From Eledone cirrhosa (taxonomy: Eukaryota), in NCBI GenBank assembly GCA_964016885.1, contig OZ024740.1:177630001-177694000 (forward strand): a stretch of 64,000 nt of DNA, in the 5' to 3' direction. Position numbers and translations under genes: made by a program. Below the pieces are notes generated by a model. That model saw only the letters and a list, made by a program, of their open reading frames with translations, made no database searches and was not told the origin of the DNA. Shown here one piece after another: positions 26,467 to 27,843 of this stretch. Position 1 is the stretch's first letter. Every line of letters begins with the position of its first letter.

Positions 26467-27843
26467 CTAGCAGAATGGCCCGGCGTTGCTCGGGATTTGC
26501 TCTAGGATTCTCAGATATTTGATATATATTTATCCTTATCGAGCCTCGTGAAATAAATACGTTTGTTTATATTTTGTTATTGTGTATGCAAAAATATCTG
26601 TACATGAATATATATATATATATATATATATATATATATATATATATATATATATATATATATATATATATATATATATATATATATATATATATATATA
26701 TATATTAAAATAACAGATTAAGGTTTAAGCAAAGAATCGCTGCTTCCACCCTTAACGGGATCTTCTGAAACTAAAAAATCAATCTATGAACGCAGAAGTA
26801 AATATTTCGAAAAAAGTTACACACTATATATATATATATATATATATATATATATATATATATATACACTATATATATATATATACATATATACACACAC
26901 ATATAGCGTCATAATGCCGTTATACAGACAGTCAGATATACAGACAGATATTATAAGGGCGCAACGTTATATCTATGTATCTATCTAGAAAGAAAGACTA
27001 AGAATTCTTGCGAGAGATCGCTAAATCGTTTAATGGCGTCCCTAGAGCATTGAAAATTTGAAATATTCTTTGCTCAAAACACTCACATGGCCATAAGTAT
27101 TACGTGTGTAAAGTTTGAAAACAATCGGTTGGGTGGTTCTAATACTAAAGGGTTAAGGTATTGTTCTCAAAATAAATAATATTAAATCTATGAGATTTTT
27201 ATATTATGTGAGATAAAGCCTTTACCATGAAAATAATATAGTATATATAGAGTAATGTAAATGCTAAAGGATTAATTCCATCAGACCATGTGAGAGAGTT
27301 TATAATCACTCACGCACACATACACACTCACGCATGCAAACGCACACAAACTCACACACACACGCGCGCACCTACATACACACGCAATAGTTATTCCACT
27401 GTCATGTATCTTTGACGCATACAACTCTCAAAAGACAGCGTCTGTCACTCTCTCTCTCTCTCTCTTTCCCGCTATCCCCCTCTTTTAGTGTGTCTGTTTC
27501 TTTCACTCTCACTCTTTCTCTCTGTAACTCGTTCACATTTCTCCCCTATATCGAAAAACGCTGTGACGAATGGGGAGAAGGAGAAGGAGGAGTAGAAAGC
27601 AACTTCTTCACTTCGCCTCTCCGTTTCTTTCTCTCCCCTCTCACTCCCTCATTATGTACAGACATTGGCCACTTCACTAATTTGATCCCTAGGTCAGAAT
27701 AATTTGAAATTTGTTTTTGCTCAAAACACTTCCGGGGCCATACGGGTTACATGTGTAAAGTTTGAAAAAAAAACGGTTGGGTACTTCTCGAGTTTTAGGG
27801 AAACAGACACACAGACAGACATCTTCTGTTTTATATATATAGA
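26467..27843 (-). mobile_element. Non-autonomous Helitron carrying Penelope pLTR/hammerhead fragments
   Basis: CTAG at 26467 with hairpin cccggcgttgctcggg; 5' TC at 27843; 26496-26545 and 26705-26810 match the pLTR at 10722-10884. Confidence 0.78.

What the first reader, a model, noticed from the sequence alone, without database searches (positions are those of the whole stretch)
26467..27843. Recurring Helitron-Penelope chimera: a rolling-circle element carrying a hammerhead-bearing pLTR
Seen: a non-autonomous Helitron (TC...hairpin-CTAG) contains the hammerhead segment of the Penelope pLTR found at 10722-10830, in the same sense as the Helitron. The same junction (pLTR...aaatatttcgaaaaa.gttacacactata...catatagcgtcataatg...Helitron 5' module) recurs at 57963-58377. 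A second shared segment (26540-26610) recurs inverted at ~58395-58463, and both loci share the 3' end cccgagcaacgccgggccattctgctag. Inference: this is an amplified chimeric family that spreads a retroelement ribozyme module by DNA rolling-circle transposition. Caveat: both Helitron-borne hammerheads are damaged (GAAA to GGAA at ~26744-47; stem III truncated at 57963).
Basis: partly seen in the sequence, partly recalled or inferred. Interest (0 to 1): 0.75.

Follow-up and report, generated by a model that had tools for sequence, protein, structure and literature searches.

The report
Helitron carrying a mutant Penelope hammerhead
A small DNA transposon with over a thousand copies in this animal genome carries the end-piece of an RNA-based jumping gene, including a hammerhead-ribozyme-shaped motif that already differs at a core letter in the donor element, so it is likely passive cargo that cuts weakly or not at all (untested).

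Summary
The chimera is real and amplified. The element at 27843-26467 (minus strand) has A|TC and hairpin-CTAG|T ends. It contains about 110 bp from the 3' end of a Hydra-type Penelope-like element. The junction 24-mer has 1,126 exact genome matches (about 2,600 copies estimated). Flanks fit rolling-circle insertion: A before 85 of 98 unique 5' ends, T after 108 of 110 unique 3' ends.

The motif has Hydra-type hammerhead helices, but core U4 reads A in 17,262 exact matches against 61 for U, in donor and Helitron copies alike. The core is not better conserved than its flanks in 72 Helitron copies (p=0.22). Cleavage is untested.

Longer, rarer variants suggest one 5'-truncated insertion into a (TA)n tract, later trimmed; no abundant empty parent was found. 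Helitrons amplifying nested retro-sequences are known from bats. The scan earlier noted the U4A core and other Helitron-borne hammerheads elsewhere in this genome; I saw no note on this family. New member of a known kind; modest interest.

The parts
27677..27843 (-). Helitron 5' terminus (TC, preceded by A at 27844) and first copy of the 5' module
   Evidence: 75% identical to the first 173 nt of the RepHel Helitron at 33600
27140..27676 (-). Internal segment of the long (about 1.35 kb) subfamily
   Evidence: shared at 89-96% with L020, L022, L027, L066
26890..27140 (-). Second copy of the Helitron 5' module, leading to the microsatellite
   Evidence: 81% identical to nt 66-290 of the Helitron at 33600
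26815..26890 (-). (GT)/(TA) tract and short junction to the Penelope piece
   Evidence: junction 24-mer has 1,126 exact genome matches; this copy differs from it by one letter
26706..26814 (-). P: 3'-terminal piece of a Hydra-type Penelope-like element
   Evidence: 94% to 10719-10836; collinear downstream of the Penelope ORF end in 14 of 30 donor-type loci, the window's own included
26708..26790 (-). Type I hammerhead-shaped motif: core CAGAAGA at 26767-26761 (A at position 4 = 26766), GGAA at 26747-26744 (A13 to G, private to this copy), predicted cut after 26727
   Evidence: architecture compared by eye with File S2 of PMC8557442
26611..26705 (-). (TA)n tract at the natural 3' end of the Penelope piece; frequent site of later insertions
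26540..26610 (-). B: family-internal segment of unknown origin
   Evidence: no match to the RepHel Helitron at 33600-39367
26495..26545 (-). A: piece of the Penelope 'tail', inverted relative to P; takes the place of segment X of the other subfamily, with short shared words at both joints
   Evidence: 90% to 10835-10885; A-type and X-type copies
26467..26494 (-). Helitron 3' hairpin and CTAG, followed by T
   Evidence: CTAG at 98 of 110 unique 3' ends, T after 108 of 110
21143..26466 (-). Neighbouring decayed RepHel Helitron of another family, joined head-to-tail (CTAG|TC); its 5' boundary is inferred
   Evidence: ORFs; Pfam Helitron_like_N, PIF1, Pif1_2B; 3' hairpin
8550..10920 (+). Donor-family Penelope-like copy: broken RT/endonuclease ORF, long 3' region, P (10719-10836) and tail
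   Evidence: RT motifs resemble the Hydra alignment of PMC8557442 by eye; no Pfam hit for the one fragment scanned
57699..58686 (+). Second family locus: X-type copy inserted A|T into a Penelope end, with an inverted head-junction-P piece (58377-57963) inside
   Evidence: its flanks join to give the uninterrupted site seen at 10.8k
33600..39367 (+). Decayed RepHel Helitron with a related 5' module and 3' hairpin; likely of the mobilising family (inferred)
   Evidence: first 290 nt 80% identical to family copy L105

Best explanation
This is a non-autonomous Helitron family that carries the 3' end of a Penelope-like retroelement and likely spread it as passive cargo by rolling-circle DNA transposition, the hammerhead-shaped motif inside having a non-canonical core that likely cuts weakly or not at all. 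Shown: ends, A|T flanks, copy number, donor origin of P, and the A4 core in donor and cargo. Inferred step 1: one 5'-truncated copy (about 200 bp) of the Penelope-like element inserted into the (TA)n tract of a Helitron-derived element. Inferred step 2: internal deletions trimmed it to about 110 bp, and the trimmed form amplified most. Inferred step 3: 3' halves were swapped or rearranged (A, X and other types), one swap bringing in a second Penelope piece. Inferred step 4: RepHel of a related autonomous family, like the decayed copy at 33600-39367, supplied the enzyme. The motif needs no RNA step to be copied here.
For: Copy number: 1,126 exact junction 24-mers against 0 for the reversed control. 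29 of 68 junction copies chosen by other segments carry the exact word, giving about 2,640 copies (2,040-3,670). The 30 best loci lie on 16 contigs. Structure: among the first 30 junction matches along C1, 30 have the 5' module upstream and 18 have the family 3' end within 1.5 kb. Of 60 loci picked by the 3' end only, 49 have P upstream in sense (counted by eye). Ends, from 160 loci: A before 85 of 98 unique 5' ends (10 follow CTAG/TTAG), TC first in 81 of 98, CTAG last in 98 of 110, T after 108 of 110. An empty site exists in the window. Single donor: 82 of 118 Helitron-context copies share one three-site haplotype found in 5 of 42 tailed donor copies (queries bias one of the three sites). 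Long variant: flanked by (TA)n on both sides, 10 exact matches; Hydra elements are listed as (TA)n-targeting (PMC8557442 supplement). Core: A4 in 17,262 exact matches against 61 for U4; 0 of 72 Helitron copies have U4; core substitutions 14 of 767 against 139 of 5,325 at other non-CpG sites, p=0.22.
Against: No abundant empty parent: 4 exact matches to the P-less pattern, of which two are a duplicated A-type pair and one lacks a Helitron head, plus L110. The nested-insertion origin is therefore not shown. TC and CTAG are partly found by construction, since ends were located with the window's own end modules; the flanking A and T are not. Duplications of 4 or more bases occur in 10 of 80 full copies against 5.3 (2-9) in shuffles, slightly above chance, all in TA-rich flanks. 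The selection test is small, and the point estimate leans to conservation (1.8% against 2.6%). U4 is among the more tolerant core positions in one report (PMC4075628). 4 of 11 copies ending at (TA)n showed no family 3' end within 10 kb.
Confidence: 0.8

Rival explanations
1. Same family and same passive cargo, but P was acquired by end-bypass or composite transposition: a Helitron head upstream of a resident Penelope end was joined to a downstream Helitron tail.
For: No abundant P-less parent. 3' halves vary (A, X and at least two more types), and some copies use another Helitron's 3' end (L139, L141, L189, L248). The model has a documented case in bats (PMC4224331 passages).
Against: The long variant is bounded by (TA)n on both sides, and its 3' end coincides with where donor copies abut (TA)n (9 of 24 non-Helitron copies by script class, 11 by eye). 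That is what a truncated retro-insertion leaves, though a captured resident copy would look similar.
Confidence: 0.3
2. The A4 hammerhead is a slow but functional natural variant, and the Helitron has scattered thousands of working self-cleaving modules, some affecting host transcripts.
For: Helices I-III and a distal stem can all form, and U.U at 10.1/11.1 and a U at the cut site are common in published Hydra hammerheads (14 and 9 of 26 rows). 47 of 68 Helitron copies keep the family core. U4C is tolerated in vivo in a viroid (PMC3088659 passage).
Against: All 26 published Hydra rows have U4 and G16.2 (by a descriptor that required a canonical core), while this family has A4 and C16.2. Single mutants in the CUGA turn had low activity in a deep scan (PMC9901934 passage). 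The hammerhead fold lies 2-9 kcal/mol above the minimum-energy fold in 4 of 4 copies. No significant core conservation. Only 14 of 68 copies keep core plus all stems by a strict pattern.
Confidence: 0.12
3. The chimera was spread by the Penelope enzyme (retrotransposition in trans) rather than by rolling circle.
For: One of 30 position-sampled copies (L171) runs from Helitron head through P into the native Penelope tail. Several copies seem to stop at the Penelope 3' end.
Against: Exact Helitron ends with A|T flanks in most copies. The element ends 170 bp or more beyond P. 6 of 11 copies that seemed to stop at (TA)n resume with B and the 3' end after a later insertion.
Confidence: 0.04

Closest known systems
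Bat Helitrons carrying nested retrogenes and retrotransposon pieces (Thomas et al. 2014, PMC4224331; abstract and passages read)
   Same: A 5'-truncated retro-insertion or captured fragment inside a non-autonomous Helitron, then amplified by the Helitron, with stepwise subfamilies.
   Different: Here the cargo is a Penelope-like 3' end with a hammerhead-shaped motif, the copy number is in the thousands (118 copies over four retrogene cases there), and no clear empty parent was found.
Hydra-clade Penelope-like elements and their 3' hammerheads (Craig et al. 2021, PMC8557442; passages and supplement part 2 read)
   Same: Sense-strand type I motif near the 3' end, N7=A, U.U at the base of stem II, 4-5 bp stem III, cut-site U, (TA)n target, fold-back copies and an optional tail.
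   Different: A at core position 4 and C at 16.2; here detached from the ORF and copied through DNA.
Hammerheads of PLE pLTRs and animal retrozymes (Cervera and de la Pena 2014, PMC4209133, parts 1-2 of 4 read; 10.64898/2026.07.22.740005, two passages read)
   Same: A Penelope-derived hammerhead module dispersed as many non-coding copies.
   Different: Those are thought to move through RNA. This family has Helitron ends, no tandem ribozyme unit and a non-canonical core.

Membership tests
Non-autonomous Helitron (canonical, TC...CTAG) | 5' TC terminus | tested here: met
   81 of 98 unique 5' ends, partly by construction; window 27843-27842
Non-autonomous Helitron (canonical, TC...CTAG) | 3' CTRR with GC-rich hairpin just upstream | tested here: met
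   CTAG in 98 of 110 unique 3' ends; hairpin 26494-26479 read from the sequence
Non-autonomous Helitron (canonical, TC...CTAG) | Insertion between A and T without target duplication | tested here: met
   A 85 of 98, T 108 of 110; duplications of 4 or more bases in 10 of 80 against 5.3 (2-9) shuffled, all TA-rich; empty site at 10.8k versus 58k
Non-autonomous Helitron (canonical, TC...CTAG) | Ends related to a RepHel-coding element | tested here: met
   first 290 nt 80% identical to the head of 33600-39367; 3' hairpin matches; RepHel motifs of that element read, not scanned with Pfam
Non-autonomous Helitron (canonical, TC...CTAG) | Mobilised by RepHel through a rolling-circle intermediate | not testable with these tools
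   inferred from ends only
Penelope-like element 3' end (pLTR region), Hydra clade | Segment lies 3' of a PLE RT/endonuclease ORF in sense | tested here: met
   14 of 30 donor-type loci collinear within 1.5 kb, 3 more with the ORF inverted
Penelope-like element 3' end (pLTR region), Hydra clade | RT groups with Hydra | tested here: inconclusive
   motifs compared by eye with the supplement alignment; no tree or pairwise score was run
Penelope-like element 3' end (pLTR region), Hydra clade | Forms a direct terminal repeat (true pLTR) | not tested
   inverted fold-back copies were seen (window 58685-58820); direct repeats around a full ORF were not looked for
Hammerhead ribozyme, type I | Three helices around the core in type I order | tested here: met
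   stems of 5, 3 and 5 bp plus a 9-bp distal stem can pair, but this is not the minimum-energy fold
Hammerhead ribozyme, type I | Core C3 U4 G5 A6 N7 G8 A9, G12 A13 A14 A15, U16 H17 | tested here: not met
   A4 in 17,262 against U4 in 61 exact matches; window copy also has G13; no Rfam hammerhead match
Hammerhead ribozyme, type I | Core under purifying selection in the Helitron copies | tested here: inconclusive
   14 of 767 against 139 of 5,325, p=0.22, 72 copies
Hammerhead ribozyme, type I | Self-cleavage after H17 | not testable with these tools
   needs an in vitro assay

The most novel reading that the evidence does not exclude
The A4 hammerhead is a slow, working natural variant, and a DNA transposon has scattered a few thousand self-cleaving modules through the genome with no RNA step. 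Some copies are handed back to the Penelope enzyme (as L171 may hint), making a two-way shuttle between class I and class II elements.
Probability: 0.08. Interest if true: 0.7.

Novelty: new member of a known kind. Interest (0 to 1): 0.32.

Why it matters
As it most likely stands, this is a large, clean example of a Helitron amplifying a nested retroelement piece. It supplies roughly 6 of 30 sampled copies of this hammerhead-shaped motif, so motif counts and Penelope annotations in this genome are inflated by DNA-copied cargo. Its real use is as a control. The Helitron copies of the A4 motif were duplicated without any RNA step, so comparing their substitution pattern with donor-borne copies tests whether the odd core and helices are kept by selection during retrotransposition. 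That bears on the open question of whether Penelope-like elements need their ribozyme to cut. Two paper searches (listings each) showed no title or abstract start describing a Helitron-borne hammerhead; subscription journals and Repbase/Dfam were not searchable.

Tried and rejected
The repeat finder on the window was swamped by microsatellites and was replaced by self-BLAST. Rfam found no hammerhead on the whole window (E up to 1) or on 10700-10880 (E up to 10). Free folding of 4 copies gave z of -0.4 to -1.6 and not the hammerhead fold. The CTGAAGA at 58752 is made by a fold-back junction and was rejected as an intact core. The 15 of 61 U4 loci that I inspected fall in mixed contexts and haplotypes, which fits scattered point changes rather than an intact subfamily. 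The Penelope ORF at 59001 is separated from P by another repeat and was not taken as the donor. Pfam gave no hit for the three Penelope frames scanned. The search for a P-less parent gave 4 matches. No RNA holder was listed; the two runs laid were contig sets of unrecorded kind and only confirmed that the window's G13 is a minority letter. My first end count was offset by one base and held duplicate rows, and one search used too strict a pattern; replace them. In one search, 3 of 30 loci (L211, L215, L220) were printed in the wrong orientation and are not counted. Two papers on U4 mutants (PMC147498, PMC2271363) were not held, so I have no measured rate for U4A. bioRxiv supplements were not seen. 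Passages of 10.1101/2024.05.16.594327 and PMC13282606 gave nothing on this family.

Full report
Observation. Read on the minus strand, 27843-26467 begins TC after an A and ends in a GC-rich hairpin and CTAG before a T. Between them lie a duplicated 5' module, a microsatellite, segment P (26814-26706), a (TA)n tract, segment B, segment A and the 3' end. P is 94% identical to 10719-10836. The window copy has GGAA in place of GAAA, and the 58k copy is cut off in stem III. At 58k the head-junction-P piece is inverted relative to the B and 3' end around it. That outer element sits between A and T in a Penelope end whose uninterrupted form is at 10.8k.

The family. The window comes from a 3.0-Gb genome. 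A junction query gave 2,120 first-look candidates, and the 30 best loci lie on 16 contigs. A 24-letter junction word has 1,126 exact matches against 0 for the reversed control. 29 of 68 junction copies picked by other segments hold that exact word, which gives about 2,640 copies (2,040-3,670). Among the first 30 junction matches along C1, all 30 have the 5' module upstream and 18 have the family 3' end within 1.5 kb. Of 60 loci picked only by their 3' part, 49 have P upstream in sense (counted by eye). Of 11 copies that seemed to stop at the (TA)n after P, 6 resume with B and the 3' end further on, 1 has another Helitron's end nearby, and 4 show neither within 10 kb.

Ends and flanks. Over 160 loci, A precedes 85 of 98 unique 5' ends (10 follow another CTAG or TTAG), and TC opens 81 of 98. 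CTAG closes 98 of 110 unique 3' ends, and T follows 108 of 110. Duplications of 4 or more bases occur in 10 of 80 full copies against 5.3 (2-9) in shuffles, all in TA-rich flanks. The terminal letters are partly found by construction; the flanks are not. This is the Helitron signature (recalled definition). A decayed RepHel element at 33600-39367 shares the first 290 nt at 80% and has a related 3' hairpin, so its family is the likely enzyme source (inferred). A different RepHel Helitron begins directly after the window copy's CTAG.

The donor. P lies at the end of the long 3' region of a Penelope-like element. In 14 of 30 donor-type loci the ORF end is collinear upstream, and fold-back copies occur. 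The RT motifs resemble the Hydra alignment in the supplement of PMC8557442 by eye; I ran no tree. Whether P forms a true direct pLTR was not tested.

The hammerhead. P can fold as a type I hammerhead with stems of 5, 3 and 5 bp and a distal 9-bp stem. U.U at the base of stem II and U at the cut site are ordinary in published Hydra motifs (14 and 9 of 26 rows). But all 26 rows have U4 and G16.2 (their descriptor required a canonical core), and this family has A4 and C16.2. The A4 word has 17,262 exact matches against 61 for U4. The U4 cases inspected (15 of 61) are scattered over contexts. So the change was fixed in the donor before the Helitron acquired it. Rfam calls no hammerhead, and the fold lies 2-9 kcal/mol above the minimum in 4 of 4 copies.

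Literature on U4 points both ways. CUGA-turn single mutants had low activity in a deep scan (PMC9901934 passage). U4 gave no inactivating revertants in a phage screen (PMC4075628), and U4C lowers activity but is tolerated in a viroid (PMC3088659). I found no measured U4A rate. In 72 Helitron copies none has U4, and core sites changed at 14 of 767 against 139 of 5,325 other non-CpG sites (p=0.22). 47 of 68 spanning copies keep the family core, and 14 of 68 keep core and all stems by a strict pattern. This fits neutral decay but has little power.

Origin. A rarer long form holds about 200 bp of the donor end between two (TA)n tracts (10 exact matches), and intermediate forms exist. All share the 3' breakpoint where donor copies abut (TA)n. 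Helitron-context copies mostly share one haplotype (82 of 118) that is a minority among tailed donor copies (5 of 42, with query bias at one site). The simplest reading is one truncated retro-insertion into a microsatellite, then deletions and rolling-circle amplification. Against this, no abundant P-less parent exists (4 matches; L110), so end-bypass capture remains open. The part after B comes in at least four types; in one, a 50-bp piece of the donor's tail stands inverted in place of segment X.

Comparison and verdict. Helitrons that amplify nested retro-sequences are described in bats (PMC4224331 passages). Searches for Helitron with hammerhead or ribozyme gave 5 listings each, none on such a chimera by title or abstract start; I opened one. 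Earlier unchecked scan notes report the A4 core many times and other Helitron-borne hammerheads in this genome. I measured the A4 state before seeing the A4 notes, and the Hydra lead came from a note. The finding works like a Helitron with retro-cargo and meets the testable Helitron criteria. The cargo is hammerhead-shaped but fails the core criterion. New member of a known kind, interest 0.32.

Noticed in passing
window 11665-11785: Fold-back pair of hammerheads with canonical CTGATGA and GAAA cores, U.U at stem II, from a different family.
   Followed up: no
window 21143-26466 (-): Decayed RepHel Helitron with a near-palindromic 3' end and a SINE-like insert at about 26180-26380, directly downstream of the chimera's CTAG.
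   Followed up: partly
window 33600-39367 (+): Second decayed RepHel Helitron whose ends are related to the chimera's ends.
   Followed up: partly
window 47192-49822 (+) and 42906-44842 (-): Open 875-aa Penelope-like ORF with a 1,937-bp, 100% identical inverted copy and a transposase-like ORF pair between them; my motif scan found no hammerhead near it.
   Followed up: no
L171 / L251 727-888: Helitron head and junction run through P into the native Penelope tail; recombination between copies or re-mobilisation by the Penelope enzyme.
   Followed up: partly
L139, L141 1500-2200: Helitron-derived upstream piece plus P followed by a whole second Helitron inserted at the end of P; a further composite form.
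   Followed up: partly
L170, L182, L184, L193, L236, L238: A palindromic Helitron-type 3' end sits directly before the family's TC, as an earlier scan note describes for other heads.
   Followed up: partly
L143, L165, L177 downstream of B: B continues into a further 3' type; in L165 this holds RepHel coding fragments.
   Followed up: partly
P position 84 (stem III) in Helitron copies: 15 of 68 copies share a T-to-C change in stem III, likely a subfamily that amplified with an altered pair.
   Followed up: no
window 10406-10683: Two-copy tandem repeat of about 141 bp (82% identical) in the donor's 3' region.
   Followed up: no
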